Below are positions 2,774 through 22,315 of a DNA stretch of 59,205 nucleotides, one piece after another (the stretch's first letter is position 1; the number at the start of each line of letters is the position of its first letter). This stretch comes from a virus. Lineage: Duplodnaviria; Caudoviricetes. The notes beneath the pieces were generated by a model. That model made no database searches and was not told the origin of the DNA. It was given only the letters and a program-made list of their open reading frames with translations. The DNA is taken from positions 1 through 59,205 of the IMG/VR virus record IMGVR_UViG_3300026026_000125, one strand, 5' to 3'. The position numbers and the translations under genes were made by a program.

Positions 2774-2941
2774 ATGAAAAAAATAAAATTATACATCAGA
2801 ACGCCTCTGAATAAAAATCAAGAATATACAATATGTGATGAAATTTCAGATGAAGTTTATGCTTCAACAGGCGTGCAAGGACTTGCAATAGTTATTAAAA
2901 TTGCATTAGAAAATCATATGAACAACATGTCAAAGAACTAA
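2774..2941 (+). CDS. Hypothetical protein
   Basis: 3' part of ORF 2660..2941; ATG at 2774. Confidence 0.6.
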   Translation: MKKIKLYIRTPLNKNQEYTICDEISDEVYASTGVQGLAIVIKIALENHMNNMSKN

Positions 2942-2967
2942 TTTAACTCAAATTTAATAAAAAATAT
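2921..2967 (+). repeat. ~47-bp direct repeat, copy 1
   Basis: AACAACATGTCAAAGAACTAATTTAACTCAAATTTAATAAAAAATAT. Confidence 0.9.
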
Positions 2968-2968: not shown

Positions 2969-3220
2969 ATGAAAATTTATATGTTTAAAAAAACTGATGT
3001 TTATAAATTATTACCGAATTTTAATTCATTCGATCCTTGTAATTGGAATGAATTAAAATCATTGCCTCTTGAAGTAAAAAAATTAATAAACATATCAAAA
3101 AGACATGATTTAGTCTTTACAGAATATAACTTTATGCTTAGTTTTAATTTAGAAGATAAAGAAGCAAATAATAAATATTATGTTATGTTTATTCCGAACC
3201 CAAAATTTAATATTAAATAA
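2969..3220 (+). CDS. Hypothetical protein
   Basis: 83-aa ORF; its stop is the TAA of the following TAAC box. Confidence 0.7.
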   Translation: MKIYMFKKTDVYKLLPNFNSFDPCNWNELKSLPLEVKKLINISKRHDLVFTEYNFMLSFNLEDKEANNKYYVMFIPNPKFNIK

Positions 3221-3356
3221 CGGTCGGTCATTTACGTCCGTTGGCTATTTGAAAAACAAAAGTTGAATTTAAAACAAAAAATAAATATGGAAACAAAAGT
3301 TGAAATTATAGATGAAGTAGCCAATAGCGTAAATGCCTTATTATCTACTGGCGATT
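3218..3356. repeat. attC-like hairpin site of the solitary cassette (degenerate)
   Basis: TAAC, arms CATTTACGTCCGTTGGCTA / TAGCCAATAGCGTAAATG, then ATTATCTACTGGCGATT, imperfectly complementary to AATCGCTTGCAGCTAAC at 3606-3622. Confidence 0.7.
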
Positions 3357-3619: not shown

Positions 3620-3667
3620 AACAACATGTCAAAGAATTAATTTAACTCAAATTTAATAAAAAAATAT
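3620..3667 (+). repeat. ~47-bp direct repeat, copy 2
   Basis: One substitution and one extra A versus copy 1; begins exactly at the AAC of the cassette end. Confidence 0.9.
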
Positions 3668-4499: not shown

Positions 4500-4931
4500 T
4501 CATACAAATATTTCATTTTTACCAGTTAATTTATATTCAATGTTTTTTAAGTCTTTTCGATAATTTATGTCAACGTCACTTATATTTGAAACAGTTGTAC
4601 ATGCCCATTTTACGGTAGCGTGGTCTTTTCCCCCAATATTTTCACCAATCCGAGCTAAAGAATATTTTGTTAAACGGCGTGAAAAAAACATAGCAATTTG
4701 TCTTGATTGAACAATTTCCTTTTTTTTAGTGATTATATCCAATTTTTCGATGTCTATATTAAAGTAATAGCAAACTACATTTTTTATACAATCTATTGAA
4801 ATTTCTTCTCCTATGTTGTTTTTTAACCACCATTTTACATACTCATGAACATCCTCAAAACAAATTCCATTTTCTTCAAATTCTGGATACTCATCAAATA
4901 TCTCTTTTGCTATTTCAAAATCTGTTTTCAT
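4500..4931 (-). CDS. DnaA C-terminal (domain IV) DNA-binding domain protein
   Basis: IVQSRQIAMFFSRRLTKYSLARIGENIGGKDHATV matches the DnaA domain IV signature; no AAA+ domain. Confidence 0.85.
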   Translation of the reverse strand: MKTDFEIAKEIFDEYPEFEENGICFEDVHEYVKWWLKNNIGEEISIDCIKNVVCYYFNIDIEKLDIITKKKEIVQSRQIAMFFSRRLTKYSLARIGENIGGKDHATVKWACTTVSNISDVDINYRKDLKNIEYKLTGKNEIFV

Positions 4932-4941: not shown

Positions 4942-5097
4942 TTAAAATGGTAATTTAATTTTCATTTTATCAATTAAAGCACTTCGAATAATGCAATTAA
5001 AACTCATACCTGTTTTAAATTTATTGTCTTTCAAATATTTCCATTCATCATCTGAAAGACGAATTCTTAAAGTCTTGTATTTATTAAGTTTATCCAT
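4942..5097 (-). CDS. 51-aa ribbon-helix-helix-like protein at the end of array 1 (not in ORF track)
   Basis: MDKLNKYKTLRIRLSDDEWKYLKDNKFKTGMSFNCIIRSALIDKMKIKLPF: alternating strand TLRIRLS, two helices, IIRSAL. Confidence 0.7.
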   Translation of the reverse strand: MDKLNKYKTLRIRLSDDEWKYLKDNKFKTGMSFNCIIRSALIDKMKIKLPF

Positions 5098-5111
5098 AAA
5101 AGTGCCGTCAA

Positions 5112-5139
5112 AAGTTGCGTATATACATCGTTAGTTGCC
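5112..5139. other. Terminal half-site (attI-like) of array 1
   Basis: AAGTTGCGTATATAC-ATC-GTTAGTTGCC; 14/15 match to the motif ending array 2; no hairpin partner. Confidence 0.7.
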
Positions 5140-5142
5140 ATT

Positions 5143-5958
5143 TTAGGACACAGCTCCGATTATAGGTTCTGCATCAAAGAAAATAACATCTACTTTATTC
5201 TCAATTTTATTAAAAATAGGATATTCTATTTCTTTAACAACCGAACGTTCAATAATCAAATTAGGGTTCTTATGTGCTTTGTGCATCTTCGGTAATGTTT
5301 TTAATTCATCGGCACTAAAAGGCTTTGAGGTTTTCACACGCTTCACATAAGTACCTCGTTTTAATTTAGCTTCTAAGTCATTCCAGTTCACACCCTTTTC
5401 TATCATCATTTTATCTTGCAACTCGTTTGTTTTTAGCTTAAAACATTTTGCATGTCCAAATAATGAATCAGCTAACATTAAAATTGAGTTTCTTGTAGCA
5501 TCATTTTCACGCCACAATAATTGAACACAAGCATCGTGTAATGAAGGTACTTGGTAAATCCTACAATCAAATACAGCAGTTTTATTGTGTGTAGGTAGTA
5601 TTTCTTTACGTTTTTCATTAAAGAAATTCACACATTTTGCAGTAAGTTTTGAAAGTATCTTTTGCTTTTTACCATCATTATAAATGGAGCTTTTACGGTC
5701 ATCGGAATATAGTACCAAAGTTATTTCATCGCTTTGTGTATATCCAACAACTGCGTTAGTTTCTTGTACCAAAAACTTAGTAGTTTCGGTCATTAGTTCA
5801 GTTAATTTCCTATCAAATGGTCTTTCTAAACCTTTTGTCCAGTTGTGAAAGTTATTTCCATCTAATCGAATAATTACGGGCAATGTAGGTATCATTATTT
5901 CAGGTGAGAAATTTTTCTCAGTCCATTTACACCAGTCTCCCATTGTTTCAAAATCCAT
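5143..5958 (-). CDS. tRNA(His) guanylyltransferase (Thg1-like 3'-5' polymerase)
   Basis: IIRLDGNNFH, GYTQSDEITL, FDCR and WRENDATRNSI motifs; likely start MDFETMGD at 5958. Confidence 0.92.
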   Translation of the reverse strand: MDFETMGDWCKWTEKNFSPEIMIPTLPVIIRLDGNNFHNWTKGLERPFDRKLTELMTETTKFLVQETNAVVGYTQSDEITLVLYSDDRKSSIYNDGKKQKILSKLTAKCVNFFNEKRKEILPTHNKTAVFDCRIYQVPSLHDACVQLLWRENDATRNSILMLADSLFGHAKCFKLKTNELQDKMMIEKGVNWNDLEAKLKRGTYVKRVKTSKPFSADELKTLPKMHKAHKNPNLIIERSVVKEIEYPIFNKIENKVDVIFFDAEPIIGAVS

Positions 5959-6000
5959 ACTTTTATATTTTAAATTGTTAATAATTAGATGATTAAAAAC

Positions 6001-6134
6001 GGCAACTAACAACAGGTATAGCAAATAAAGGTGTTCGAGGTATGCAAACGTCCGTACTTCCTATGTTGTTCCGTGTAACTTGATAATTACTTCTTCTAAG
6101 TCCTTTACTTGCCATACCTGCGACCGTTAGGGGC
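6001..6134. repeat. attC-like hairpin site
   Basis: GGCAACTAAC, arms CAGGTATAGCAAATAAAGG / CCTTTACTTGCCATACCTG, GTTAGGGGC. Confidence 0.85.
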
Positions 6135-6166
6135 AAGCATAAGAAACATCCTGCCCCGATGAACCT

Positions 6167-6391
6167 TTAATCATCTTGGTTCATTTCTTTGTTGTCATCG
6201 AGTTCAGGAACATCTTCAACAGTTCCGTATTTTTCGAGTAGAGGTTCAACTTCTGTCCAAATGTTATAACCTTTGTCGAGCAATACAGTAGCATTGTGTA
6301 ACTGTTCTTTTGCCAACATTGCGCCTAATCCACCATTGTTTTTTAGGTTGTAATCTGCGTTTTGTAACGCTTCCATAATTGATACGCTCAT
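6167..6391 (-). CDS. Cassette-borne hypothetical protein
   Basis: 74-aa ORF filling one cassette. Confidence 0.8.
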   Translation of the reverse strand: MSVSIMEALQNADYNLKNNGGLGAMLAKEQLHNATVLLDKGYNIWTEVEPLLEKYGTVEDVPELDDNKEMNQDD

Positions 6392-6414
6392 TTTTTTTCG
6401 TTTTAAAAATGCCA

Positions 6415-6551
6415 GCCCCTAACAATGTATATAGCAAATTGGGGGTTGTTTACAAGTTGCTACATTCGCACTCTTTATTTAGTTTCTGCAAGCTGATAGG
6501 TTCGTGCGTTCTATTCCCCAACTTGCCATATACTTAACATTACCGCCAATA
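6415..6551. repeat. attC-like hairpin site
   Basis: GCCCCTAAC, arms GTATATAGCAAATTGGGG / CCCCAACTTGCCATATAC, degenerate ATTACCGCC. Confidence 0.82.
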
Positions 6552-6824
6552 TTAAGGGAACAACGGCATTTCATTAACTCCCCACCATTGGTCATAATCA
6601 AACGGGTATTCTTTTGCGGGTGGATATTCTTTACATTCTTGTTCCCACGCTTTTAGTTTTTCGTTTTTATGAAATTCCATAGCCATTTCTGCACCTTTTT
6701 TAGTTTTGTGAATACTTATAGTCGCTGCTACACTTTCGTAACAATCAGAATTATAAAGAAATTCATAAACAAATACTGGTGCCAACACAGGCTCAACCGA
6801 AATAGCGGGTTCTGTGGTTTGCAA
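6552..6824 (-). CDS. Cassette-borne hypothetical protein
   Basis: 90-aa ORF whose N-terminus is encoded by the hairpin; start codon uncertain. Confidence 0.7.
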   Translation of the reverse strand: MQTTEPAISVEPVLAPVFVYEFLYNSDCYESVAATISIHKTKKGAEMAMEFHKNEKLKAWEQECKEYPPAKEYPFDYDQWWGVNEMPLFP

Positions 6825-6913
6825 AGTTTTGTTTTTTGTTTTTATATTCGTTGTATTTTGATTGTTAAGTGTTTCAAATTCCGATACATGCGGTTACACT
6901 CAACGTTATCGCC
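6774..6913. repeat. attC-like hairpin site (degenerate)
   Basis: TGGTGCCAAC ... GTTATCGCC with imperfect arms. Confidence 0.65.
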
Positions 6914-6950
6914 TCATTTCCATCGCTTTGTGTTTTTGGTTAAACAATTA

Positions 6951-7625: not shown

Positions 7626-8009
7626 ATGATTATGTTGATTAATTATTCTGATATGCTAATAAATATGTGTTATTTGTCTATTAGCATATTATCAATTATT
7701 TTTATTTTGTATTTGTATTTTATAAACAAAAAAGATAACAAAATAAAATTATACCAACTTGGTATCGCTCCGATTCAAGGTATAGAAATTCCTATAGATT
7801 CTGAAATAATCTCAATAACCTCAGAGAAAAGAAATATTATCGTCAAAATTCTTTTTAATAAAAGAAACAAATTAATTCTCAGAAATTTTCAGATGATTGA
7901 ACCCGGAGATAAAGTTTTATCAAAAGGTTTATTTTTAAAAACTATTATTCTTGAAAATCCATATACTGTTTTAGATATTTACGATTTAGGAGAAACAAAA
8001 ATAAAATAA
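7626..8009 (+). CDS. Hypothetical membrane-anchored protein
   Basis: N-terminal hydrophobic stretch. Confidence 0.65.
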   Translation: MIMLINYSDMLINMCYLSISILSIIFILYLYFINKKDNKIKLYQLGIAPIQGIEIPIDSEIISITSEKRNIIVKILFNKRNKLILRNFQMIEPGDKVLSKGLFLKTIILENPYTVLDIYDLGETKIK

Positions 8010-8023
8010 AATAATATAATATA

Positions 8024-8200
8024 ATGGGAAATTATGCTAGATCAGCTCTTAAAGGATTTATTTGTCCGGTTCGAGGATGTGATAAAAAAAATAATAGAAG
8101 ATTTACACTTATTGGATTGTGTATGCATTTAAAAAGTAATCATACTGGAGAACTTGAAAAAAGATTAAAATTAAAAAATGAATGGAGAAATAAAAAATAA
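8024..8200 (+). CDS. 58-aa C2H2 zinc-finger-like protein (not in ORF track)
   Basis: FICPVRGCDKKNNRRFTLIGLCMHLKSNH. Confidence 0.6.
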   Translation: MGNYARSALKGFICPVRGCDKKNNRRFTLIGLCMHLKSNHTGELEKRLKLKNEWRNKK

Positions 8201-8201
8201 C

Positions 8202-8267
8202 GGCAATCGAGGGTTCCTGGATAATTAAGTTTGTCCTGGAGGTCGGGTTCGATTCCTGGCATTGCCA
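8202..8267 (+). ncRNA. tRNA-like element or pseudo-tRNA
   Basis: GGCAAT/ATTGCC-A acceptor-like stem and TCGGG-TTCGATT-CCTGG T-arm; no canonical D-arm. Confidence 0.5.
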
Positions 8268-8913
8268 CTATAAGACCAAAATAAAATAATATGAATGAAA
8301 TAATATCTTTAATCATTAGGTATTTTTATTTAGGGGTATTCGTTATCATATCGATTGCTATATTTGTTAAGTTATTAAAAAATATTATAAATAGATAATA
8401 ATAGATCGATGGAAGCGAATTGCATCAGGTAATAAGATAGTAAAATGACAGATAAACCAATAGCAATAAGGATAATTTCAATGGGGATAGTCATTGATGA
8501 GAATGGTTATGAAATTCCCTCAGATGAATTAATTAATTATTATATGCAAACAGTATGGCCTTATGAAGAACAATAGCAACTGGGATGTTGAAATAGCATT
8601 AAGTAATAATTTTAAAGTTATTCGAAATAAAGCAAATGGTACTATAGAATTATTACAAGGTGAAAAATTAATTGACAAAAGATTAGGGATACAAAATCTG
8701 AGGTTGTTAATATTTACATATTTTTTGATATTGTAAAAGAATGGGAGAAAATGGCATGAAAAGATCATTAATAAAACATATAATCAAAAAGCACTTACCG
8801 GGTATTTCAAAAAAAGACCTGAATGAATTAACTGAGGATATAATTCAACTCTTTGGAGGCGAAGATTCAGTAAGATGTGTATTTGATGAATTAATAACAA
8901 TAAATAATACATT

Positions 8914-9291
8914 ATGAGGAATATTTCAAATGACCAAGCAATTAAATGGGATGAATTAATTTCATTTTTGAATAAATTTGGTATAAAAACAGAAATAATA
9001 GATATAGATAAATATGGATTTTCACGAACTATAGAATTTAAAGTTTATGAAATTACTTATCGAATTATCTGGTTTATAAATGAAAGTACACTTATGATAG
9101 GCACTGGAGATAGAGCTTCGCAAATCCTTTTTAAATATATTTATTTTGATGGTACATTCCCTTTAATAGAAGGGAACAAAAGTTTAGGATTTTCATATGT
9201 TAAATTTGAACGGGAAAATATATTTGATAGACTTTATCCTTATGAAGTTTTTAGGATACCATTAGATATTTTAACAATACCTGAAAAATAA
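8914..9291 (+). CDS. Hypothetical protein
   Basis: 125-aa ORF. Confidence 0.75.
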   Translation: MRNISNDQAIKWDELISFLNKFGIKTEIIDIDKYGFSRTIEFKVYEITYRIIWFINESTLMIGTGDRASQILFKYIYFDGTFPLIEGNKSLGFSYVKFERENIFDRLYPYEVFRIPLDILTIPEK

Positions 9292-9395
9292 ACCGATATG
9301 ACAAAGGAAGAATTAATAAATAAATTGGATAAACAAGCCGATTGGGAGAGAAAGTTTTATTTAGAAATAGATTAATAACAATTAAAATAAATAAA

Positions 9396-9767
9396 ATGGC
9401 TGAAAAATGTATTATTAAAACCTGTGTAAAAAAAGAAACTGCAAAAGGTGTATTTTACACAATCGAACTTTCCGATGGTAGAAAGGGTTCTAGTTTTGAT
9501 GATTTGACCCAAAAAATGGGAATGGAAATTGAATTGGAGGTTAAGAACTCAAAAGAATTTGAGGGTGTTATGCAATATTATTTTAATCTTCCAAAAGCAC
9601 CAGGTCAACAAGGAGGTAAATTTCCTGAAAAAGATTGGACGTATGAAAAAAGAAAACAATCTCTTATTTGTGCAATTGACGCTATTAAATTAACGGACAC
9701 AAAAGTATCGACCAATAATATCATTTCTTTATCAAATGAATTTTTCACCTATTTAAATCAGAAATAA
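9396..9767 (+). CDS. Possible ssDNA-binding (OB-fold-like) protein
   Basis: Beta-rich N-terminal half, immediately upstream of the exonuclease; start MAEKC. Confidence 0.45.
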   Translation: MAEKCIIKTCVKKETAKGVFYTIELSDGRKGSSFDDLTQKMGMEIELEVKNSKEFEGVMQYYFNLPKAPGQQGGKFPEKDWTYEKRKQSLICAIDAIKLTDTKVSTNNIISLSNEFFTYLNQK

Positions 9768-9768
9768 T

Positions 9769-10557
9769 ATGCCAATATTTTATGACAATAAAGCCAATTT
9801 AGTAGTAAGTAAGGATGATCACTTTTACGAATCACTTAGTGAACCTGGTATTTATTATCCATCTGTTACAACAAAACTTGGTTCATATCCTAAAGGTTAT
9901 GGATTTGAAGAGTATCTTAAGGCGAATGGATTTAATTCTGAAATAATACTTGAAAGAGCTGGTAATTTGGGAAAAGAAGTTCATAATGCTATTGAACAAT
10001 GGCATAAAATAAAATCTATACGTCAAATAAGTGAAGATTTGACACATGAATTTTATTCATGGGATGCTTGGAAAATGTTTAATAAATATATGAATTTTTA
10101 TACAAGATTTAAACCCGAAAATCTTGTAAGCGAATTTAAAATTGTTAGTCCAAAATGGAAAACTGGTGGGACAATGGATGAAATAGATATGATTAATAAT
10201 CAAAGATGGTTAATTGATCATAAAACAGGTAATAATATTTATACTACTCATTGGATTCAAATAAGCGTTTATGCTAAAATTTGGACAGAATTAAATCCTC
10301 AATATCCAATAGACAAGATTGGCATTTTACATTTAAATGCAGATACAAAAACAGATGGAAAGGATGGCAAAATTCAGGGTATAGGATGGCAATTGAAAGA
10401 ACCTCCTAAAGATATTGATCACTACATAAAACTTTGGGACTATACATCTGCTTTATGGGATGAGGAAAATCCAAATGCAAAGCCACGAATGCTAGAATTT
10501 CCTATTGAATTTAAAGAAGAAAAACCAGTCATTCCAACAGGGTCAACTTTATTTTAA
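9769..10557 (+). CDS. PD-(D/E)XK exonuclease (phage recombination nuclease)
   Basis: YPSVTT, GKEVHNAIE, GGTMD, LIDHKTG and QISVY motifs. Confidence 0.85.
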   Translation: MPIFYDNKANLVVSKDDHFYESLSEPGIYYPSVTTKLGSYPKGYGFEEYLKANGFNSEIILERAGNLGKEVHNAIEQWHKIKSIRQISEDLTHEFYSWDAWKMFNKYMNFYTRFKPENLVSEFKIVSPKWKTGGTMDEIDMINNQRWLIDHKTGNNIYTTHWIQISVYAKIWTELNPQYPIDKIGILHLNADTKTDGKDGKIQGIGWQLKEPPKDIDHYIKLWDYTSALWDEENPNAKPRMLEFPIEFKEEKPVIPTGSTLF

Positions 10558-10728
10558 ACTTATGGCCACCTTATCAGAAGCAAGAAAAATAATAGCAGAA
10601 TATCCAATTAAGCAGGATTTTATTGCAAATAATATTAATTATATTGGACATTGGGATAATTATGTGGAATTACGAGATTATTGGGAACAGTGTAATGAAA
10701 TAGTTAAGTTAAATAAAGACGTTAAAAT

Positions 10729-11181
10729 ATGAAAAATTATTCAAAAATGTTTATGGATATTGCTGAATTAACAGCAATTCAAGCAAATTGCGTAAAATAT
10801 AAAGTTGGTTCTGTTATTGTTAGAGATAATAGAATTATACTTCAAGGATATAATGGAACAATCCCAGGGTTCATAAATTGTAGTGAAAAATTTCATGATT
10901 ATGATGAGATTAAAATGTTTAACGATCATCATATTTGGTCATCAGCTTTTGAAGTTCATTCTGAAATGAATATAATTTGTTATGCTGCAAAAAAAGGAAT
11001 TTCACTCGAAAATACTATAATGTATTGTACTCATACACCGTGCAACAACTGTCTAAAACATTTAATTCAAGTTGGAATATCAAAAATTGTTTACAAAAAT
11101 TTATATATTGATAATATAAATTTTAAAGAAAGAGAAGAATTACTACAGTATATAATTTTAGAAAAATATAATGAAATTTAA
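10729..11181 (+). CDS. dCMP deaminase
   Basis: VGSVIV, GYNG, HSEMN and PCNNC motifs. Confidence 0.92.
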   Translation: MKNYSKMFMDIAELTAIQANCVKYKVGSVIVRDNRIILQGYNGTIPGFINCSEKFHDYDEIKMFNDHHIWSSAFEVHSEMNIICYAAKKGISLENTIMYCTHTPCNNCLKHLIQVGISKIVYKNLYIDNINFKEREELLQYIILEKYNEI

Positions 11182-11377
11182 AATATGAAAAATATTAAAA
11201 TTAAATGTGATTTCATGCCACATTGTGGAAATTACAAAACCCTAAAATGTAAGACCTGTAAGTTTAATATGAGGTTTGAGTTGAAGGATAATTTTAAAAA
11301 TAAGTGAGAAACCTAATGAGACATTAATGGTCACAGCTATGTTTAGTACCGAATTATAAACTTAAAATAACAGAGCA

Positions 11378-11563
11378 ATGGCAATAACTGAAAAGTATTT
11401 AGAAAAACAAACAGCTACTTTTGCTGAATTAAAAAAACATATATTAAATCAAAAAGCTAAAAGTGAATACAAACAAGCTGCTATAATTATGATGAGATTA
11501 GCCTTTACTGAATTGATGCTGTATGATATTAACCAGCAACGCAAATTATTAATTGACTTTTAA
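11378..11563 (+). CDS. Hypothetical protein
   Basis: 61-aa ORF in operon orientation. Confidence 0.6.
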   Translation: MAITEKYLEKQTATFAELKKHILNQKAKSEYKQAAIIMMRLAFTELMLYDINQQRKLLIDF

Positions 11564-11599
11564 ATATTACATTCAAAAACTTAAAATGTATAATCTCTT

Positions 11600-12082
11600 A
11601 TGAAATACGATTTATCTAAGCAATTTAAAATAGAATCAGCTAAGGAATATCTTGAGCAATTAATCAATAGTAAATCATTTATTGAGTTAAAGAAATTAAA
11701 ATTAAAAAGATCATTAGATGCAAACGGATTATATTGGCTTTGGCTTACGTGTATTGAAAAGGAAACCGGACTTGACAAAAATGAATGTCATTTTCTTTAT
11801 CGATCTTTATATCTTGCAAAACATGATGAATATATTACCAAAATAATTCGTCCTGATCTTTGGATAAAATTAAAAGTATTAATTCAACAATTTAGTTATT
11901 TCAAAGGACTCAATGAAATTATCGACATAATATCTGAAAGTACTACCGAGCAAGATACGGATAATTTCTCTAAATATCTAAAAAATATTCAAATTCATGC
12001 ACGGGCCAATATGGGTGTAATTTTATTGAATTTAGAAGATAAAAACTTTGCTGAGTTCTATAAAGAATACGGATTCTATTAA
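11600..12082 (+). CDS. NinB-like recombination protein
   Basis: KRSLDANGLYWLWL...H and STT...FSKYL motifs. Confidence 0.7.
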   Translation: MKYDLSKQFKIESAKEYLEQLINSKSFIELKKLKLKRSLDANGLYWLWLTCIEKETGLDKNECHFLYRSLYLAKHDEYITKIIRPDLWIKLKVLIQQFSYFKGLNEIIDIISESTTEQDTDNFSKYLKNIQIHARANMGVILLNLEDKNFAEFYKEYGFY

Positions 12083-12317
12083 TTTTTGACTAAAATATTT
12101 GTTTATTAAGTATATTGATAGAAACTAAAAGGGTATGTATAAATTGTACACTCCCTTATATAAATGAATGAAATTAGTTGATTCATATATAATTAAAGAT
12201 GGCAATTAAATATAAATACATTTGTCCAATTTGCAATAAATCACATTCGAATTATTTTGATGCTAAATTATGCTTTGATTTGTGCGCCAAGGAATCTATT
12301 AAAAAAGAGATAAAAAA

Positions 12318-12689
12318 ATGTTTAAGGTACCAGAAAAATATAGGTTAATAACCGGTGAATTGGCTTCAGATAAATCATTTGGAAATAATGGCGTTTTTAT
12401 AATTCCTATGATGCATAATTTATATGCATATTGTATAGCTTCTGATGGTGAAGGATGGGAACATGTTTCTATTCATTTATCTACAAGAACTCATGATTTA
12501 AAACGCTCTCCTATATGGGAAGAAATGTGTCGTATAAAAGAATTATTTTGGAGCGATGATGATTATGCAATTCAATTTCATCCTAAAAAATCAGAATATA
12601 TAAATAATCATAAATATTGTTTGCATTTATGGAGACCTGTAAATATGGAAATTCCAAAACCTCATTATTCATTAATTGGGATAAAATGA
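12318..12689 (+). CDS. Conserved phage protein of unknown function
   Basis: GWEHVS...PIWEEMCRIKELFW...QFHP...YCLHLWRP pattern. Confidence 0.75.
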   Translation: MFKVPEKYRLITGELASDKSFGNNGVFIIPMMHNLYAYCIASDGEGWEHVSIHLSTRTHDLKRSPIWEEMCRIKELFWSDDDYAIQFHPKKSEYINNHKYCLHLWRPVNMEIPKPHYSLIGIK

Positions 12690-13135: not shown

Positions 13136-13270
13136 TGAAACAAACAGACAAGGATAATTTGATAAAATCCATAAAAGAACAATGGGTTGAGGATTTTGGC
13201 GATTTAACTTCAGAACGAGAAATTGATGGATATACTTTAATTGGGTTTATTTTAAATATTTTAAACAAAG

Positions 13271-13495
13271 ATGAAATCAACAAAAACACTTGACCTTTAC
13301 ATTAAAGGCACCGAAAGTTTAACAGAGGCCAATATTTTAAAGGCAATGAAAGAACATACAATGCAATGTCTTGAATGGCTAACTAATAAGGATGCAAAAT
13401 ATGCGATACTTTATGGTGGAGAGCCGGTACGATTTGCAACAATAAAAAAAGATTTAACAATTGAGGAATTGTATGACGAATTTAATAATGAATAA
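13271..13495 (+). CDS. Hypothetical protein
   Basis: 74-aa ORF. Confidence 0.65.
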   Translation: MKSTKTLDLYIKGTESLTEANILKAMKEHTMQCLEWLTNKDAKYAILYGGEPVRFATIKKDLTIEELYDEFNNE

Positions 13496-13497
13496 TT

Positions 13498-17936: not shown

Positions 17937-18093
17937 TGAAGAAATTCCATTTTAAGAACTTTTAATCAAACACTTTAAAATAGGCTATGTTATTAAACTA
18001 ATGATAATTAAACACATAAACTTTAAAATACATGAAAAAATATCAAAAAGGCGCTAACGAATAATAATATGAATAGTAAAAATTACGATTAAA

Positions 18094-18330
18094 ATGGAAG
18101 AAAAAAAACTTATATGCGTACTGTGTGGGCAGGAATGGGGAGTACAAAACCCATTTACAAACCGATGTGAAAACGAAAAATGTACAGGGTTTTGTACGTG
18201 GGGTTATAAACAGATGAAGCCTGAAAGTTTTTTTATTGATGATAAATGTATTCATGGGTGGGAAAAATCAGATTATTGCGCAGAAAACAATATGTGTGAA
18301 AAATGCAAAACGGCGGGCAATGACCGATAA
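18094..18330 (+). CDS. Cys-rich hypothetical protein
   Basis: 78-aa ORF; its stop is the TAA of the first array-2 TAAC box. Confidence 0.6.
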   Translation: MEEKKLICVLCGQEWGVQNPFTNRCENEKCTGFCTWGYKQMKPESFFIDDKCIHGWEKSDYCAENNMCEKCKTAGNDR

Positions 18331-18461
18331 CGGTGGCCGTATGGTGGCGTACCGGATTTTGAAAAACTAAAAAATCAAGTTACAATGAACGAGAATAAAA
18401 GCACGGAACAATCGCAACTTACCGAACCCGGTATGCACTATACGGCTTGTTATGACCCGTG
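18328..18461. repeat. attC-like hairpin site
   Basis: Arms GCCGTATGGTGGCGTACCGG / CCGGTATGCACTATACGGC with one extrahelical base. Confidence 0.85.
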
Positions 18462-19302
18462 TTTTAATCATGGTTCTCTTTTTTCTGGTATTGGTGGATT
18501 TGATTTAGCAGCAAAATGGATGAATTGGAACAATGTTTTTCAAGTTGAAATAGACAATTATTGTCAAAAATTACTTACTAAAAATTTCCCAGATGTTACA
18601 AGATATAGCGACATACGAGAGTTTGACGGCAAACAATACACCGGAGCAATTGACATTATTTCCGGCGGATTCCCTTGCCAACCATTTAGCAACGCCGGGC
18701 AAAAACAAGGCACAAAAGATGACCGCTATTTATGGCCGGAAATGTTACGAGTTATACGGGAAATACAGCCAATTGCCGTACTTTGTGAAAACGTGCCTGG
18801 AATCGTTGGAATGGAACTCGACAATATGCAGGCTGATTTGGAAAGTAAAGGGTACAAAACACAAGCGTTTATTATTCCAGCTTGCGGTAAAAATGCAAAG
18901 CATAAAAGAGACAGGGTTTGGGTTGTTGCTTACACCGACTGCCAGCGATGGAAAGATGAGCAAAAAGAAAGAACAAAACCTATATATAACAGAAAATGGA
19001 ACGATACGACTAAGGAACAAAGCAGGAACGATCAGCAATGCGGGATTATCAAATCAAGTTTTATTCTTACCAACACCGACAACGCAGGATTCAAAGAACA
19101 ACGGCAGTCAATCGCAAATGGAACGGAATACTTTGCCCCTAAATGCAGTAGCTGGTGGGAAACTGAACCCGGAATGGGTAGAGTGGCTGATGGGATACCC
19201 AATAGGGTGGACAGACTTAAATCATTAGGCAATGCAATTGTACCTCAGATTGCATTCGAGTTGTTTCGTTCAATCGAAGAACTTGTCTTACATGGGGCAT
19301 AA
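18385..19302 (+). CDS. C5 cytosine DNA methyltransferase, main chain
   Basis: LFSGIGG (I), GFPCQPFS (IV), ENV (VI), HKRDRVW (VIII), LGNAIVP (X); motif IX not seen in this frame. Confidence 0.93.
   Translation: MNENKSTEQSQLTEPGMHYTACYDPCFNHGSLFSGIGGFDLAAKWMNWNNVFQVEIDNYCQKLLTKNFPDVTRYSDIREFDGKQYTGAIDIISGGFPCQPFSNAGQKQGTKDDRYLWPEMLRVIREIQPIAVLCENVPGIVGMELDNMQADLESKGYKTQAFIIPACGKNAKHKRDRVWVVAYTDCQRWKDEQKERTKPIYNRKWNDTTKEQSRNDQQCGIIKSSFILTNTDNAGFKEQRQSIANGTEYFAPKCSSWWETEPGMGRVADGIPNRVDRLKSLGNAIVPQIAFELFRSIEELVLHGA
18593..19228 (+). CDS. Nested +1-frame second chain of the C5 methyltransferase
   Basis: 211 open codons ending LNPEWVEWLMGYPIGWT (motif IX-like). Confidence 0.75.
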   Translation: MLQDIATYESLTANNTPEQLTLFPADSLANHLATPGKNKAQKMTAIYGRKCYELYGKYSQLPYFVKTCLESLEWNSTICRLIWKVKGTKHKRLLFQLAVKMQSIKETGFGLLLTPTASDGKMSKKKEQNLYITENGTIRLRNKAGTISNAGLSNQVLFLPTPTTQDSKNNGSQSQMERNTLPLNAVAGGKLNPEWVEWLMGYPIGWTDLNH

Positions 19303-19524
19303 CGTTGACGGTTGTCGAAGTTGCCGACTAAGTAGCACAAAATTATCAATTTACTAAAAACTTAATAAAATGGCAGAAACTTTGAATACCCACGAAAACG
19401 GCATATGAAACGTGCGGGATTAGTAGCACTGCACTATCAAACTATAAAAATGTAAATTAAATGAGCGAACTTACAATAACAGATAAATCCCAAATTGCAT
19501 ATAGCGAGTGTTATACACAGGCAT
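19291..19524. repeat. Double-length fused attC-like site
   Basis: Two loop-like segments in tandem; outer arms do not pair with each other. Confidence 0.7.
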
Positions 19525-19554
19525 TTTTAGTAAATAATTGAAAACTAATATACT

Positions 19555-20556
19555 ATGATAACGAAAAACATTCAAGTACCAACAGGAAATATTTGCGTAA
19601 TGAAAGGCGAAAAGGGTTTTATTGAGTTCCTTTCGATTGGCGATTACGGCAAAGATTCAAATATTAAAGCCGACTTTCTCGGAATAACAAGAGAATTAAA
19701 TGGTGTGCCAAATGGTGAAATAATGTCTTTGAGCGAAAAATGGGTAATAACCATAAGTACACAGTATGGCTGTTCGATGGGTTGTAAATTTTGCGATGTA
19801 CCGAAAGTTGGCAAAGGTTTAAATGCAACATTAAACGACCTTACAAACCAACTTATTGAAGGTTTAAAATTGCACCCTGAAATTGGAGCAACAAAAAGGC
19901 TGAACTTACACTATGCAAGAATGGGTGAACCTACATTTAATTTTGATGTAATTGAACACTCTAAACAACTGCATAAGATTGTAAAACCTTATATTGGTAA
20001 TAGTATGATACACCCAGTAATTAGCACTATGCTACCAAAAGTAAATAAAAGACTTATGGAGTTTTTGAACGAGTGGTGCGACATTAAAAACTACACTTAT
20101 AGAGGTGATGCAGGATTGCAATTTTCGATTAATAGTACTGATGACGAGCAAAGAAATGAAATGTTTAGCGGAAATACGTTACCTATAAATGACATTGCCG
20201 AAATTGGAAGACTGCTACCCGACCCAAAAGGCAGAAAATACGCTTTAAATTTTGCATTAGCTGACAACTATATTGTAGATGCTGAAAAACTTGCAATACT
20301 TTTTAACCCTAATAAATTTATGGTAAAAATTACTCCACTTCATAAAACGCAAAGTTGCGATGATAACGGAATAATAACAACCGATGGTTACGAAGCATTT
20401 ACCCCATATCAAAAAGCAGAAACCGACTTAAAAAACGCTGGATTTGATGTAATTGTATTTGTTCCAAGCTATGATGAAGATTTAGGTTTAATCACTTGCG
20501 GAAATGCTATCTTATCGGGCAGTATTCCAAAAGTTAAATTTACGCAGGTACTTTAA
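19555..20556 (+). CDS. RlmN/Cfr-like radical SAM enzyme
   Basis: ISTQYGCSMGCKFC, MGEP and C-terminal TCG motifs. Confidence 0.85.
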   Translation: MITKNIQVPTGNICVMKGEKGFIEFLSIGDYGKDSNIKADFLGITRELNGVPNGEIMSLSEKWVITISTQYGCSMGCKFCDVPKVGKGLNATLNDLTNQLIEGLKLHPEIGATKRLNLHYARMGEPTFNFDVIEHSKQLHKIVKPYIGNSMIHPVISTMLPKVNKRLMEFLNEWCDIKNYTYRGDAGLQFSINSTDDEQRNEMFSGNTLPINDIAEIGRLLPDPKGRKYALNFALADNYIVDAEKLAILFNPNKFMVKITPLHKTQSCDDNGIITTDGYEAFTPYQKAETDLKNAGFDVIVFVPSYDEDLGLITCGNAILSGSIPKVKFTQVL

Positions 20557-20570
20557 TCGGAGACGGTTTT

Positions 20571-20716
20571 ATGCTTGTGTATAACGAATGGTGGTATGGT
20601 TAGTTGGGGATTAGATACCGACAACCTATCCACCGAGTAGAAACTTAATAAATATAAAGAATGATGAATAACGAACAAAAACCCCAATTAACTATACCAC
20701 GTGTTAGTGGCAGTAC
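20571..20716. repeat. attC-like hairpin site
   Basis: Arms GTGGTATGGTTAGTTGGGG / CCCCAATTAACTATACCAC. Confidence 0.88.
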
Positions 20717-21320
20717 GGATTGGTCAGGGGACAAAAACAGTATTTACAAAACGCTTGGAGCTTCAAATCATACGGATAAAGAACGCCAAAGCGAAGATTA
20801 TTACGCAACCGAACCAAAGGCAGTTGAATTGCTTTTAGATTTAGAAGATTTTACAAACTTGTATGTTTGGGAATGTGCTTGTGGACAAGGGCATTTATCG
20901 GAAGCAATGGAGCAAAAAGGAATAAAAGTAAATTCAAGCGATTTGATTTTAAGAGGCTACGATAAGGCTTATTTATACGACTTTTTAAGCGAAGAAAACA
21001 AAGAGTGGAAAGGACATATTATTACAAACCCGCCTTATAAATTTGCAAAGGAATTTGTTTATAAAGCATTATCAATTGTTCCTGATGGTTGCAAAGTAGC
21101 AATGTTTTTAAAAGTACAATTTTTAGAAGGCAAAGCAAGGAAACAATTGTTTGAGATATACCCACCTAAAATAGTTTACGTTTCAAGTAGCCGATTATTA
21201 TGTGCTAAAAACGGAGAATTTGAACAAATGATTGCTGGCGGAGGTAGTGCAGTTGCTTACGCTTGGTATGTTTGGGAGAAAGGATATAAAGGTAAAACAG
21301 AACTACAATGGTTCAATTAA
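20661..21320 (+). CDS. N6-adenine (amino) DNA methyltransferase
   Basis: DYYATEP, WECACGQG, IITNPPY and YAWYVWEKG motifs. Confidence 0.88.
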   Translation: MMNNEQKPQLTIPRVSGSTDWSGDKNSIYKTLGASNHTDKERQSEDYYATEPKAVELLLDLEDFTNLYVWECACGQGHLSEAMEQKGIKVNSSDLILRGYDKAYLYDFLSEENKEWKGHIITNPPYKFAKEFVYKALSIVPDGCKVAMFLKVQFLEGKARKQLFEIYPPKIVYVSSSRLLCAKNGEFEQMIAGGGSAVAYAWYVWEKGYKGKTELQWFN

Positions 21321-21331
21321 GCACTTTTGTA

Positions 21332-21476
21332 GTATTGCCGCTAACGCTAAGTATATGGCAAGTTGGGGAATAGAAACCACTGCACTATAAAAATAATACT
21401 AACTTAATAAACAGAGATACAAATGAATACACTACAAAAACCCCAATTGCATAAACATAGTGTTAGGCAACGTAAG
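21332..21476. repeat. attC-like hairpin site (probably chimeric)
   Basis: GCCGCTAAC...TTGGGG / CCCCAA...GTTAGGC; outer parts of the arms pair poorly. Confidence 0.8.
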
Positions 21477-21764
21477 TTTTCTATTCTGAAAATACTCATA
21501 AGCCTTTATATCGAAAAAATACATCGCAAAGTTTATGATAACCAATATCGGCAGGATTACAAAATAACATGGAAAGATAAACCAATATTGAAATGGTACT
21601 CATTCCTATTTTGGTTGCTTCCTGATTTTAGAACTTATTTGAAACATTGGAAGCCAATTATAAAAAAGGCTTATAATATCAAAAAACTATCAATTATTAG
21701 ACAGGTAACATTTTGGAATATCCGAAAAGTAAATGTAGAACGCTATTCTTCTTATGTTGCCTAA
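21423..21764 (+). CDS. Cassette-borne hypothetical protein
   Basis: Starts in the hairpin loop and stops at the TAA of TAAC. Confidence 0.7.
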   Translation: MNTLQKPQLHKHSVRQRKFSILKILISLYIEKIHRKVYDNQYRQDYKITWKDKPILKWYSFLFWLLPDFRTYLKHWKPIIKKAYNIKKLSIIRQVTFWNIRKVNVERYSSYVA

Positions 21765-21862
21765 CGGCTGGCGGTATGAAGCGTACCGCATTGTAGAACG
21801 CTTCAAATTATTAACAAGCCTTTCTGCGGTATGCTTTATGACCGCTTGTTAGGCACAGTACT
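21751..21862. repeat. attC-like hairpin site
   Basis: Arms GCGGTATGAAGCGTACCGCA / TGCGGTATGCTTTATGACCGC. Confidence 0.88.
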
Positions 21863-21868
21863 TTTATT

Positions 21869-22093
21869 ATGGCTGAATTGAAAATAGAAAAACATAAATG
21901 GCAACCAAATTTCAAAGATGAAACATGGGTTATTGATAAGCGTAGGCAAGAAGAGTTTCAAATTACCTTAAAACAAGGTGAAGATATTGAAATTGAATTT
22001 ACATGGGATTATGGATATGGTGGGCGTGGGACTGAGCGAATGTATATCAATCCAAAAGTACTAAGGGAGCTACTCGATGAGTTGGGTCTTTAG
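21869..22093 (+). CDS. Cassette-borne hypothetical protein
   Basis: 74-aa ORF filling one cassette. Confidence 0.75.
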   Translation: MAELKIEKHKWQPNFKDETWVIDKRRQEEFQITLKQGEDIEIEFTWDYGYGGRGTERMYINPKVLRELLDELGL

Positions 22094-22125
22094 TATTGTG
22101 CCTAACAAGTGTATATATGCAACTT
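22092..22125. other. Terminal half-site (attI-like) of array 2
   Basis: GTGCCTAAC-AAGT-GTATATATGCAACTT; no hairpin partner. Confidence 0.7.
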
Positions 22126-22147
22126 CTGTATTACAAAAATTAATTAA

Positions 22148-22315
22148 ATGACTATAGTACAATCAATAAGAGTTAATGTAAATATCATTGAAAAACAACA
22201 ATGGTTAAAAGATCATAACATTAACTCCGATGCATTTATGAGAGTGGCATTTGAAGATAAATTTGAAAAAGAATATGGCAAAGTATTTAAATCTAAGCTT
22301 GAGGTTCCTTTTTGA
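22148..22315 (+). CDS. 55-aa ribbon-helix-helix-like protein at the end of array 2 (not in ORF track)
   Basis: MTIVQSIRVNVNIIEKQQWLKDHNINSDAFMRVAFEDKFEKEYGKVFKSKLEVPF. Confidence 0.65.
   Translation: MTIVQSIRVNVNIIEKQQWLKDHNINSDAFMRVAFEDKFEKEYGKVFKSKLEVPF

What the first reader, a model, noticed from the sequence alone, without database searches (positions are those of the whole stretch)
5130..6913. Second cassette array on the opposite strand with the same grammar
Seen: three cassettes (Thg1-like plus two hypotheticals) with matching ends, GTTAGTTGCC/GGCAACTAAC and GTTAGGGGC/GCCCCTAAC being perfect. The third pair and the outermost site, farthest from the half-site, are the most degenerate. 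Inference: this fits an age gradient in which new cassettes are added at the half-site end, as at integron attI.
Basis: partly seen in the sequence, partly recalled or inferred. Interest (0 to 1): 0.8.

Follow-up and report, generated by a model that had tools for sequence, protein, structure and literature searches.

The report
Integron-like gene cassette array in a phage
This phage carries two rows of swappable gene cassettes separated by hairpin sites built like integron recombination sites, a layout shared by many Bacteroidota phages and bacteria in which a Xer-type recombinase gene sits at the half-site end.

Summary
On the minus strand, 5109-6916 holds three cassettes: a Thg1-like gene and two small unknown ORFs. 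They are separated by ~130-nt imperfect hairpin sites, and the row ends in a half-site. Each cassette is flanked by its own inverted repeat, GTTAG+N...N+CTAAC, up to 15 bp long.

The plus-strand array at 18050-22128 follows the same grammar. A covariance model of the site finds such arrays in unrelated phage records, in Polaribacter phage P12002L (weakly) and in Bacteroidota contigs. The hairpin covaries strongly, with near-invariant G.T wobbles on one strand.

The window has no tyrosine recombinase. In relatives, a 275-aa XerA/IntI-like recombinase sits directly behind the terminal half-site. In metagenome loci, 29 of 29 same-strand sites lie upstream of that gene. It lacks the IntI-specific insertion, and the sites lack extrahelical bases.

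Best reading: an integrase-less, integron-like cassette array (CALIN-like) that stockpiles DNA-modification and probable counter-defence genes. The half-site is the attI-like end.

The proposed age gradient is only a trend (p about 0.1). Polarity of cassette turnover could not be tested.

Phage CALINs are already published (Qi et al. 2023). The Xer-type recombinase, the cassette orientation and the start codons inside the sites seem unreported.

The parts
6775..6916 (-). Outermost full hairpin site T0. Its R'' is GGCGATAAC at 6913-6905 and its degenerate R' is GTTGGCACC from 6786 downward.
   Evidence: Covariance model R1 57.3 bits and R2 88 bits. Sequence read.
6539..6786 (-). Cassette 3, farthest from the half-site. 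It holds ORF 6552-6824 (90 aa, TTG start inside T0, no family match).
   Evidence: R stem has 10 of 15 Watson-Crick pairs, 13 with wobbles.
6412..6550 (-). Hairpin site T1, from R'' GGCGGTAAT to R' GTTAGGGGC.
   Evidence: Model R1 129 bits. Fold. It is 93-96% identical in its body to sites in G002 and G008.
6126..6423 (-). Cassette 2, from GTTAGGGGCTGGCAT to ATGCTTGCCCCTAAC. It holds ORF 6167-6391 (74 aa, unknown).
   Evidence: No Pfam or PHROG match.
5999..6137 (-). Hairpin site T2, from R'' GCCCCTAAC to R' GTTAGTTGCC.
   Evidence: Model R1 119 bits. Fold.
5130..6010 (-). Cassette 1, next to the half-site, from GTTAGTTGCCGTTTT to AAAATGGCAACTAAC. It holds ORF 5143-5958 (271 aa, Thg1-like 3'-5' nucleotidyltransferase).
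   Evidence: PF04446 1.2e-25. phrog_4717 3.3e-67. Stem 15 of 15 paired.
5109..5133 (-). Terminal simple site (half-site), TAAC|GATGTATATACGCAACTTTTG. It has R'' and an L''-like arm only, with no returning arm.
   Evidence: The same core is found at array ends in L096-L098 and beside recombinase genes in L089 and L090.
4942..5097 (-). Small ORF (51 aa) right after the half-site, with a weak ribbon-helix-helix-like match.
   Evidence: PF21983 NikA-like E = 0.005, below the cut-off. A similar small ORF follows the plus-strand array.
18050..22128 (+). Sister array with the same grammar. It starts at box GGCGCTAAC (18050). Sites are S1 18320-18460, S2 19297-19516 (chimeric, does not fold as one hairpin), S3 20574-20714, S4 21334-21473 and S5 21754-21859. 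The half-site is TAAC|AAGTGTATATATGCAACTTCTG at 22103-22128. Cassettes are a 78-aa ORF, a C5 DNA methyltransferase (18385-19302), a radical SAM protein (19555-20556), a DNA methyltransferase (20661-21320), and 113-aa and 74-aa ORFs.
22148..22315 (+). Small ORF (55 aa) after the plus-strand half-site.
   Evidence: no family match.

Best explanation
The region is an integron-like gene cassette array without its own integrase, comparable to a CALIN.

Anatomy. Each unit is one ORF framed by a cassette-specific inverted repeat, R' = GTTAG+N and R'' = N+CTAAC. Units are separated by a ~116-nt hairpin body (L'' - loop - L').

Inferred mechanism. In a circular cassette, R'' and R' would close the foot of one long imperfect hairpin, as in an integron attC site. 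A Xer/IntI-type tyrosine recombinase would recombine that folded single strand (the strand carrying the G.T wobbles) with a simple double-stranded site, ..TAAC|..GTATATACGCAAC. The array now sits inside that site. Its left half is GGCGATAAC at 6913 and its right half is the half-site at 5109-5129. The likely crossover is at the TAA|C of the R'' box. New cassettes would therefore enter at the half-site end.

The window encodes no such enzyme in its 59 kb. It would have to come in trans, from a Bacteroidota host element or a co-infecting phage.

Second role of the sites. In phage arrays the ORFs lie on the folding strand. The hairpin loop carries a conserved A-rich motif and often the start codon of the next ORF, so the sites also act as expression modules.

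Cargo. The cassettes encode DNA methyltransferases, a radical SAM enzyme, a Thg1-like enzyme and small unknown proteins. This suggests an exchangeable store of DNA-modification and counter-defence genes.

Shown: the anatomy, the covariation, the family distribution and the linkage to the recombinase gene. Inferred: the catalysis, the strand used, the crossover point, the direction of cassette entry and the trans-acting source.
For: Site structure. The sites are 129-131 nt from R'' to R' (one of 96, one of 220) and fold as long imperfect hairpins. The coding strand is always the more stable, for example -15.6 against -12.2 kcal/mol for T1.

Covariation. On 52 sites, 92.5% of cells are paired against 66% in shuffles (0 of 500 shuffles reach it). 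In the L stem, 16 of 18 pairs change on both sides. Two G.U positions are kept in 48 of 51 and 50 of 51 sites.

Cassette pairing. Cross-gene R'/R'' pairing is specific to each cassette (16 of 34 against 0 of 48 and 93 of 2222). A separate search found 99 credible cassettes in 37 records, with 75 distinct variable 7-mers.

Recombinase linkage.
- PF00589 is absent from the window.
- It is present in 2 of 10 related records, each time at the array end.
- All 8 viral loci with this recombinase show ..AAC| followed by a simple site upstream of its ATG; 7 of the 8 share the ..ATATGTAT.. core, ~45-60 nt upstream.
- Among the 17 metagenome loci with at least 50% recombinase identity and at least 700 nt upstream, 12 have model hits. 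All 29 same-strand hits across the 35 metagenome loci are upstream of the gene and none is downstream.
- In G003 the last R'' (..GCCAAC) is fused to codon 62 of the recombinase gene, at a sequence resembling the simple site.

Recombinase identity. It matches NF040815 (XerA/integron integrase) at 197 bits and TIGR02249 (integron integrase) at 176 bits, both below their cut-offs. Among solved structures it matches XerA (110 bits) and IntI4 (103 bits).

DNA-level rather than mRNA-level feature. Bacterial contigs L089-L091 carry the same sites with ORFs on the opposite strand (4 of 4 cassettes). The wobble strand therefore does not follow the mRNA.

Shared cargo. C5 methyltransferase relatives of the window's cassette lie in recombinase-linked arrays L079 and L082.

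Published precedent. Qi et al. 2023 (PMC9892861; I read section 13 and matching passages) report CALINs in phages, including Polaribacter phage P12002L. One predicted P12002L attC recombined with attI1 under IntI1. P12002L shows the same grammar by eye, though only one weak model hit (25 bits).
Against: - No recombinase is present in the window (76% complete). None is present in the complete relatives G001, G004, G007 and G010 either.
- The linked recombinase lacks the IntI-specific insertion: IntI4 residues 182-247 face query residues 178-200. It scores below the integron-integrase cut-offs.
- The sites have no extrahelical bases.
- No recombination was observed directly. The public runs I laid were contigs only. 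They show shared sites and cassettes in other contexts, but no excision joint I could interpret.
- Hairpin bodies, R frames and ORFs each reassort. The same frame surrounds non-homologous ORFs, and a 92%-identical body has different R words on both sides. One crossover point does not explain this.
- 5 of the 17 recombinase loci with enough upstream sequence have no detected site.
- The recombinase could instead be a phage integrase whose attP happens to lie there.
- IntegronFinder and HattCI were not available, so a formal attC call was not made.
Confidence: 0.7

Rival explanations
1. The hairpins are regulatory intergenic modules, acting as an mRNA processing or stability stem plus a translation-start loop. 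Genes are shuffled by ordinary homologous recombination between these repeated modules, as proposed for the PeSL cassettes of T4-type phages (recalled, not read here). No dedicated site-specific recombinase is involved.
For: - The loops carry a conserved AACTTAATAAA-like motif.
- In 3 of 8 window cassettes (4 if the uncertain TTG start at 6824 counts), the ORF's start codon lies inside the site: 18385, 20661 and 21423.
- 3 ORFs use the TAA of R'' as their stop codon.
- The G.U wobbles lie on the coding strand in phage arrays, where 49 of 55 cassettes have the ORF on that strand.
- S2 looks like a loop-to-loop chimera of two sites.
- Bodies, frames and ORFs reassort at several boundaries.
Against: - Homologous recombination gives no reason for each gene's two flanks to be complementary to each other in a cassette-specific way.
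- In bacterial arrays L089-L091 the ORFs are on the other strand, yet the wobble strand is unchanged.
- There is tight positional linkage to one tyrosine recombinase family and to a simple site.
- Array ends fall exactly at TAAC|.
- The two roles are not exclusive: the best explanation already includes the expression role.
Confidence: 0.15
2. The Xer-like recombinase seen in relatives is simply a phage or prophage integrase, and the simple site upstream of it is attP. The arrays are accessory-gene islands that happen to lie next to it, and the window's arrays have nothing to do with it.
For: - Simple Xer-like recombinases do serve as integrases of some phages (passages of Smyshlyaev et al. 2021, PMC8138268).
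- The recombinase family is very abundant, with uniform length: 3532 proteins at E <= 1e-30 among 8000 scored candidates. The few that carry a source name are called XerD.
- 5 of the 17 loci with enough upstream sequence show no detected site.
Against: - The simple site resembles the R''-L'' half of the hairpin sites and always begins directly after a cassette-type ..TAAC.
- Recombinase-less arrays in several unrelated phages end in the same kind of simple site.
- The G003 array is fused inside the recombinase gene at a look-alike site.
- All 29 same-strand hits are on one side of the gene.
Confidence: 0.08
3. The matching ends are chance inverted repeats in an AT-rich genome.
For: At a loose threshold (13 of 15 with wobbles), shuffled copies of the window give about 51 pairs.
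Against: - At 14 of 15 Watson-Crick, the real window has 5 pairs against 0.145 expected.
- The covariance model finds the same ~140-nt site family at E values down to 1e-26.
- Covariation over 52 sites exceeds every shuffle (0 of 500 reach it).
Confidence: 0.01

Closest known systems
Clusters of attC sites lacking an integrase (CALINs) in phage genomes, notably Polaribacter phage P12002L (Qi et al. 2023, PMC9892861; I read section 13 and matching passages)
   Same: - Co-oriented cassettes in a phage, separated by imperfect hairpin sites with RYYYAAC/GTTRRRY-like ends.
- No integrase in the phage.
- DNA methyltransferase cargo.
- P12002L shows the same cross-gene pairing and has two arrays that end in one identical terminal sequence.
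   Different: - That paper reports 2 predicted attC sites in P12002L, with divergent predicted directions, and uses IntI1 as the test enzyme.
- The sections I read do not describe a family-wide site model, a linked Xer-type recombinase, start codons inside the sites, or the terminal simple site.
- My model hits P12002L only weakly (25 bits), because its hairpin bodies are short.
Sedentary chromosomal integrons, such as the Vibrio superintegron with its uniform VCR attC sites (recalled)
   Same: - Long arrays and attC-like sites of uniform length (about 130 nt).
- High mutual similarity of sites within an array.
- Each cassette's first bases are complementary to the R'' of its own site.
- A simple attI-like site lies at one end, next to the recombinase gene.
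   Different: - The recombinase lacks the IntI-specific insertion and falls below the integron-integrase cut-offs.
- The sites have conserved G.T wobbles instead of extrahelical bases.
- The R stems reach 13-15 bp rather than 7.
- In phages the ORFs lie on the folding strand and read towards the attI-like end.
Xer/dif-dependent elements and pdif modules (recalled)
   Same: A Xer-family simple tyrosine recombinase is involved, and modules are flanked by inversely oriented short sites.
   Different: The sites here are ~130-nt covarying hairpins plus a simple site, not 28-bp dif-like sites in alternating orientation. No dif-like 11-6-11 architecture was seen.
PeSL mobile regulatory cassettes of T4-type phages (recalled; not read here)
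   Same: Repeated intergenic modules with a stem-loop and expression signals flank small accessory ORFs in hyperplastic regions of phage genomes.
   Different: PeSLs are direct repeats thought to act through homologous recombination. They have no cassette-specific inverted repeat across the gene and no linked tyrosine recombinase.

Membership tests
Integron (complete) | An integron integrase gene (a tyrosine recombinase with the IntI-specific additional domain) next to the array | tested here: not met
   The window has no PF00589 match. The recombinase linked to such arrays in relatives scores 176 bits against the 265-bit cut-off of TIGR02249 and 92 bits against 435 for NF011946. It has only 23 residues (178-200) where IntI4 has 66 (182-247).
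Integron (complete) | An attI-type simple site between the integrase gene and the first cassette | tested here: inconclusive
   The window has simple half-sites at 5109-5133 and 22103-22128 but no integrase gene. In relatives, a ..AAC|..simple site lies beside the recombinase gene in all 14 loci inspected, 8 viral and 6 bacterial. Function was not tested.
attC recombination site | An imperfect palindrome R''-L''...L'-R' with RYYYAAC and GTTRRRY ends, 55-141 nt long, conserved in structure more than in sequence | tested here: met
   Sites measure 96-131 nt (one chimeric site of 220). The ends are ..YTAAC and GTTAK... The L stem covaries in 16 of 18 pairs.
attC recombination site | Extrahelical bases and an unpaired central spacer that mark the recombining strand | tested here: not met
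   An asymmetric internal loop (5-9 nt against 2 nt) separates the R and L boxes. No conserved bulged bases are present. Instead there are 2-3 near-invariant G.T pairs on one strand.
attC recombination site | Detection by the IntegronFinder or HattCI attC models | not testable with these tools
   Neither model is available here. Rfam holds no attC family, and the only Rfam hit in the window is a tRNA.
CALIN (cluster of attC sites lacking an integrase) | At least two attC sites close together with no integrase nearby | tested here: met
   The minus-strand array has three full sites plus a half-site. The plus-strand array has five sites plus a half-site. The 59-kb record has no tyrosine recombinase. 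This holds only if these sites are accepted as attC.
Integron cassette | The first bases of the cassette are complementary to the R'' of the same cassette, the signature of a circular intermediate cut at G|TT | tested here: met
   Pairing across the gene is seen in 16 of 34 adjacent site pairs, against 0 of 48 within a site. The window's cassettes pair at 13-15 of 15 positions.
PeSL-type regulatory cassettes | Direct repeats made of an early promoter plus a stem-loop, with no site-specific recombinase | tested here: not met
   A cassette-specific inverted repeat flanks each gene, and the arrays are linked to a recombinase gene. Promoter content was not tested.

The most novel reading that the evidence does not exclude
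Bacteroidota and their phages share an abundant second lineage of integron-like platforms with these features:
- It is run by a compact XerA-like recombinase of 275 aa that lacks the IntI domain which reads extrahelical bases.
- Its ~130-nt attC-like hairpins mark the recombining strand by conserved G.T wobbles instead.
- In phages the cassettes are turned round, so the ORFs lie on the folding strand, and the hairpin loop supplies the start codon.
- The site is therefore at once a recombination site and a translation-start module.
- Integrase-less phages such as this one borrow the host's enzyme to swap DNA-modification and counter-defence genes at the half-site.
Probability: 0.45. Interest if true: 0.85.

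Novelty: new variant of a known kind. Interest (0 to 1): 0.72.

Why it matters
Integrons are regarded mainly as a proteobacterial device. IntegronFinder 2.0 reports them as rare in Bacteroidetes (passages of PMC9024848), and phage CALINs are reported as infrequent (21 phages with integrons or their parts among 10,705 genomes screened; Qi et al. 2023).

Here one site family links arrays in unrelated phages, a cultured Polaribacter phage and Bacteroidota chromosomes. It is tied to a very abundant recombinase family that sources name only XerD.

If the enzyme works as inferred, three things follow:
- Cassette exchange is a major route by which phages of an ecologically dominant phylum trade methyltransferases and other counter-defence genes.
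- A tyrosine recombinase without the IntI-specific domain can run an integron-like system.
- The open questions of how attC sites arise and how strand choice is made become testable in a second, independent system.

Tried and rejected
- Rfam scan of the window: only a tRNA.
- blastn of the minus-strand array against 50,697 phage records: no match.
- First collection scan with a site pattern: 43 loci, about the number expected by chance. Only a few proved real with the model.
- Search for an unoccupied primordial site, GGCGMTAAC..GTATATAYGCAAC, in viral contigs: 0 matches.
- Half-site pattern scan: 8 loci, of which 3 are real (L096-L098) and 5 are chance hits in coding sequence.
- All-against-all blastp of 9 phage records: the only protein family shared by the window and at least 4 other records is DnaB (one further 5-record family lacks the window). 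I recognised no recombinase shared by all array-bearing phages, though most shared families were left unannotated.
- The family of ORF 4500-4931, which lies near arrays in 4 records, is a DnaA domain IV-like protein, not a recombinase.
- Terminal small ORFs: no family above cut-off.
- Deciding whether the hairpin body travels with the upstream or the downstream gene. One triple (window T1, G002, G008) links body with downstream R'. Another pair with a 92%-identical body differs on both sides. This is unresolved.
- An automatic chain builder for arrays ran on into noise beyond the array ends. I therefore curated the rank table by hand before the test, and dropped chain members with fewer than about 9 Watson-Crick pairs that lay outside model-defined arrays.
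- Laying contigs of four public runs. They cover the hairpin sites and parts of several cassettes in wastewater, sediment, peat and groundwater metagenomes, and break off at the R boxes (loose ends at 20583, 20705/6 and 21461). No joint could be read as an excision, and contigs cannot show rare forms.
- Earlier findings of this scan: none on this genome.
- Four literature searches found only Qi et al. 2023 as directly relevant. Nothing surfaced on a Xer-type recombinase linked to attC-like arrays in Bacteroidota or their phages, but subscription journals are not covered.
Full report
**What is there**

The window is a linear IMG/VR virus record of 59,205 bp, estimated 76% complete, with about 32% G+C.

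Read on the minus strand, 6916 to 5109 contains, in order:
- a full hairpin site T0 (6916-6775)
- a 90-aa ORF
- site T1 (6550-6412)
- a 74-aa ORF
- site T2 (6137-5999)
- a 271-aa Thg1-like gene (5958-5143)
- the sequence ..GGCAACTAAC|GATGTATATACGCAACTTTTG
- a 51-aa ORF

They extend to 14-15 of 15 paired positions. The third cassette's real partners are GTTGGCACC and GGCGGTAAT (10 of 15 Watson-Crick). GGCGATAAC at 6913 is the R'' box of the outermost site, not an inverted partner.

The plus-strand array at 18050-22128 has the same grammar. Its cassettes encode a 78-aa ORF, a C5 DNA methyltransferase, a radical SAM protein, a second DNA methyltransferase, and 113-aa and 74-aa ORFs. It ends in ..GTGCCTAAC|AAGTGTATATATGCAACTTCTG followed by a 55-aa ORF.

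**More than chance**

The window holds 5 GTTR...YAAC pairs with at least 14 of 15 Watson-Crick matches, four of them in the arrays. The mean in 200 shuffles is 0.145, maximum 2.

**Anatomy of a site**

Each site reads, on the coding strand:
- R'' (..YTAAC, then G)
- 5-9 nt of spacer
- L'' (..GTATGG..)
- a ~70-nt loop
- L' (..CTATAC..)
- 2 nt of spacer
- T, then R' (GTTAK..)

Five window sites measure 129-131 nt, one 96 nt. One of 220 nt (S2) does not fold as a single hairpin and looks like the left half of one site joined to the right half of another.

The coding strand always folds more stably than its complement. Three positions are G.T on that strand in all five aligned sites, which means A.C mismatches on the other strand.

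The loop carries an AACTTAATAAA-like motif. In three window cassettes the ORF's ATG lies in the loop (18385, 20661, 21423). Three ORFs stop at the TAA of the R'' box (18330, 19302, 21764).

**A family, not a local oddity**

A covariance model built from the five window sites found full-length matches in 9 further viral loci or records, up to 122 bits. By all-against-all blastp, the window shares with at least 4 of these phages only a DnaB helicase.

A 52-site alignment gives 92.5% paired cells against 66% in shuffles (0 of 500 shuffles reach it). Changes on both sides occur in 16 of the 18 L-stem pairs. G.U is kept in 48 of 51 and 50 of 51 sites at two positions.

The cross-gene rule holds throughout. 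R' of site i pairs with R'' of site i+1 by a run of at least 5 bp beyond GTTA in 16 of 34 adjacent pairs. Most failures are far apart and probably have an undetected site between them. The rate is 0 of 48 within a site and 93 of 2222 elsewhere.

A model-free search gave 99 credible cassettes in 37 records, with 75 distinct variable 7-mers. The R' consensus is GTTA-K-N-N-G-C-N-G-T. The stem reaches 15 bp and carries a conserved G.T (R' ..CGT against R'' ATG..), again on the coding strand.

**The recombinase**

The window has no PF00589 match. Neither do the complete relatives G001, G004, G007 and G010. Two of ten related records do have one, and in both it sits at the downstream end of the array.

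In G009 the order is: one hairpin site; a cassette (GTTATGTGCCGTTAA...TTAATGGCACATAAC); the simple site ATAAAATATGTATTACATC; and 45 nt later the ATG of a 275-aa recombinase.

In G003 the last R'' (..GCTGCCAAC) is fused to codon 62 of the homologous gene, at a sequence resembling the simple site. The first 61 codons are found nowhere in that record.

Evidence of linkage:
- All 8 viral loci encoding this protein show ..AAC| followed by a simple site upstream of the ATG; 7 of the 8 share the ..ATATGTAT.. core, ~45-60 nt upstream, and L084 differs.
- Cassettes or model hits lie upstream in G009, L078, L079, L080 and L082. In L081, L083 and L084 little upstream sequence is held.
- Among 35 metagenome loci, 31 model hits at E <= 0.01 fall in 15 loci. 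All 29 same-strand hits lie upstream of the gene and none lies downstream. The 2 opposite-strand hits lie downstream in loci with more distant recombinases.
- Of the 17 loci with at least 50% identity and at least 700 nt upstream, 12 have hits and 5 have none.
- Seven bacterial contigs encode relatives: Saprospiraceae, Chitinophaga, Ignavibacteriae, two Bacteroidota MAGs, Polaribacter ponticola and Spirosoma. Five of them carry model hits. L086 shows a cassette by eye, and Spirosoma (31% identity) shows none.

**What kind of enzyme**

It matches NF040815 (XerA/integron integrase) at 197 bits against a 220-bit cut-off, and TIGR02249 (integron integrase) at 176 bits against 265.

Among solved structures it aligns end to end with archaeal XerA (110 bits). 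With Vibrio IntI4 (103 bits) it aligns in two blocks. Query residues 178-200 stand where IntI4 has residues 182-247, so about 43 residues are missing. From recall, that region is the IntI-specific domain that contacts the extrahelical bases of attC. Its absence fits the absence of bulged bases in these sites.

The family is abundant: 3532 proteins at E <= 1e-30 among 8000 scored candidates, and all but 3 of the best 120 are 275-278 aa long. The few that carry a source name are called XerD.

**Orientation and the strand question**

In viral records, 49 of 55 cassettes carry their ORF on the G.T-wobble strand.

In bacterial contigs L089-L091, 4 of 4 cassettes carry it on the other strand, and the recombinase gene is convergent with the site orientation.

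In both layouts the simple site and the recombinase lie beyond the R'' end of the last cassette. Read from that end, every cassette is GTTAG..gene..CTAAC-hairpin, which is the classical integron cassette. The bacterial layout then has classical ORF orientation, with the integrase co-directional. From recall, that is the 'inverted integrase' arrangement. The phage layout has the ORFs reversed and reading towards the attI-like end.

Because the wobble strand does not follow the mRNA strand, the asymmetry is a DNA-level feature. The wobble strand corresponds to the integron bottom (recombining) strand. This correspondence is an inference.

**The half-site**

Recombinase-less arrays end in TAAC| plus 2-4 nt plus GTATAT-like words: both arrays in the window, G001, two arrays in G004, and L010.

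The window's core GTATATACGCAAC is found at array ends in three more viral contigs (L096-L098; 3 real among 8 pattern hits). As GTGTATACGCAAC it lies next to the recombinase gene in L089 and L090.

Both window arrays begin with GGCG[A/C]TAAC. I read this box and the half-site as the two halves of one primordial simple site, split by the array. No unoccupied copy was found.

**Polarity**

I hand-curated a table of 35 cassettes in 6 arrays. The Watson-Crick score falls from 13.5 (innermost) to 11.8 (outermost). The within-array permutation gives p = 0.097. Spearman correlation on relative position gives rho = -0.25, p = 0.15. G001 (13 cassettes) and G008 (7 cassettes) show no decline.

No relative shares neighbouring cassettes with the window, so turnover polarity is untested.

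**Complications**

The same R frame, with conserved untranslated ends and a small 3' hairpin that re-uses the R' word, encloses non-homologous ORFs in different phages.

A body that is 92% identical has different R words on both sides. The T1 body keeps its downstream R' in three phages while R'' differs.

Contigs from other metagenomes break off at the R boxes on either side of S3 and at the R' of cassette 5. One of them joins an S3-like body to the C5 methyltransferase gene through a different R' word.

Homologous exchange between the similar bodies therefore probably acts alongside any site-specific step.

**Comparison with what is known**

Qi et al. 2023 screened 10,705 phage genomes. They report 17 CALINs, among them Polaribacter phage P12002L with two methyltransferase cassettes, and they show IntI1-dependent recombination of one of its predicted attC sites.

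P12002L has the same grammar with short hairpin bodies, in two arrays on one strand. The two places I read as their ends (near 29240 and near 37296) are followed by an identical ~70-nt sequence.

Phage CALINs are therefore known, and this window is a further, much clearer case. I did not find four things in print (searches; IntegronFinder 2.0 passages):
- the linked Xer-type recombinase
- the wobble-marked hairpins
- the reversed cassettes with start codons inside the sites
- the breadth of the family

**Verdict**

- Observation: confirmed.
- Integron-like reading and the attI-like half-site end: supported by comparative evidence.
- Age gradient: not shown.
- Catalysis, strand, crossover point and trans supply of the enzyme: inferred.

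Noticed in passing
window 3210-3351 (+): A lone, degenerate copy of the hairpin site lies between two small plus-strand ORFs, outside both arrays. It scores 32.5 bits with R1. Its R'' is AAATAAC and its R' has decayed to ATTA. It may be a relic of a third array.
   Followed up: partly
window 2921-2964 and 3620-3663 (+), also 13799-13837: A 44-nt direct repeat (98% identical) ends just before the ATG of small ORFs. This is a different family of intergenic module, possibly a promoter or translation-start region.
   Followed up: no
window 19297-19516 (+): Site S2 is 220 nt long and does not fold as one hairpin. Its L'' and L' arms are not complementary, and it holds two loop-type ATG modules. It looks like a loop-to-loop fusion of two sites after loss of a cassette.
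   Followed up: partly
window 4500-4931 (-): A 143-aa protein consisting of a DnaA domain IV-like DNA-binding domain (TIGR00362, 1.4e-24, C-terminal part only). Homologues lie near the arrays in G001, G004 and G007.
   Followed up: partly
L072/L073 (record G003) 36149-35478 and about 36120: The Xer-like recombinase gene lacks its first 61 codons. The R'' of the last cassette is fused in frame to codon 62, at a sequence resembling the simple site. This looks like a secondary-site event that probably inactivated the enzyme.
   Followed up: partly
L058 7970-8206, L060 3963-4202, L010 8953-9174: A homologous ~75-aa ORF family (25-44% identity) follows the terminal half-site in three recombinase-less arrays. 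It has no Pfam match. The window has ribbon-helix-helix-like ORFs in the same position.
   Followed up: partly
window 6150-6135 (-), and G001/G002 'TAAGCC' cassettes: Several cassettes end in a small local hairpin whose 5' arm repeats the cassette's own R' word (GGGGCAGG..GCTTGCCCCTAAC; AAGCCGT..TGGCTTATAAC). R'' can therefore pair either locally or with R'.
   Followed up: no
window 33049-33121 (-): A tRNA-Met gene (anticodon CAT) sits within the late-gene region.
   Followed up: no
L091 (Polaribacter ponticola contig) 8001-16258: A chromosomal array of at least four hairpin sites lies next to a recombinase relative (46% identity). Its cassette ORFs are large (185 and 489 aa) and lie on the strand opposite to the wobble strand. 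This is a candidate sedentary integron-like element in a cultured flavobacterium.
   Followed up: partly
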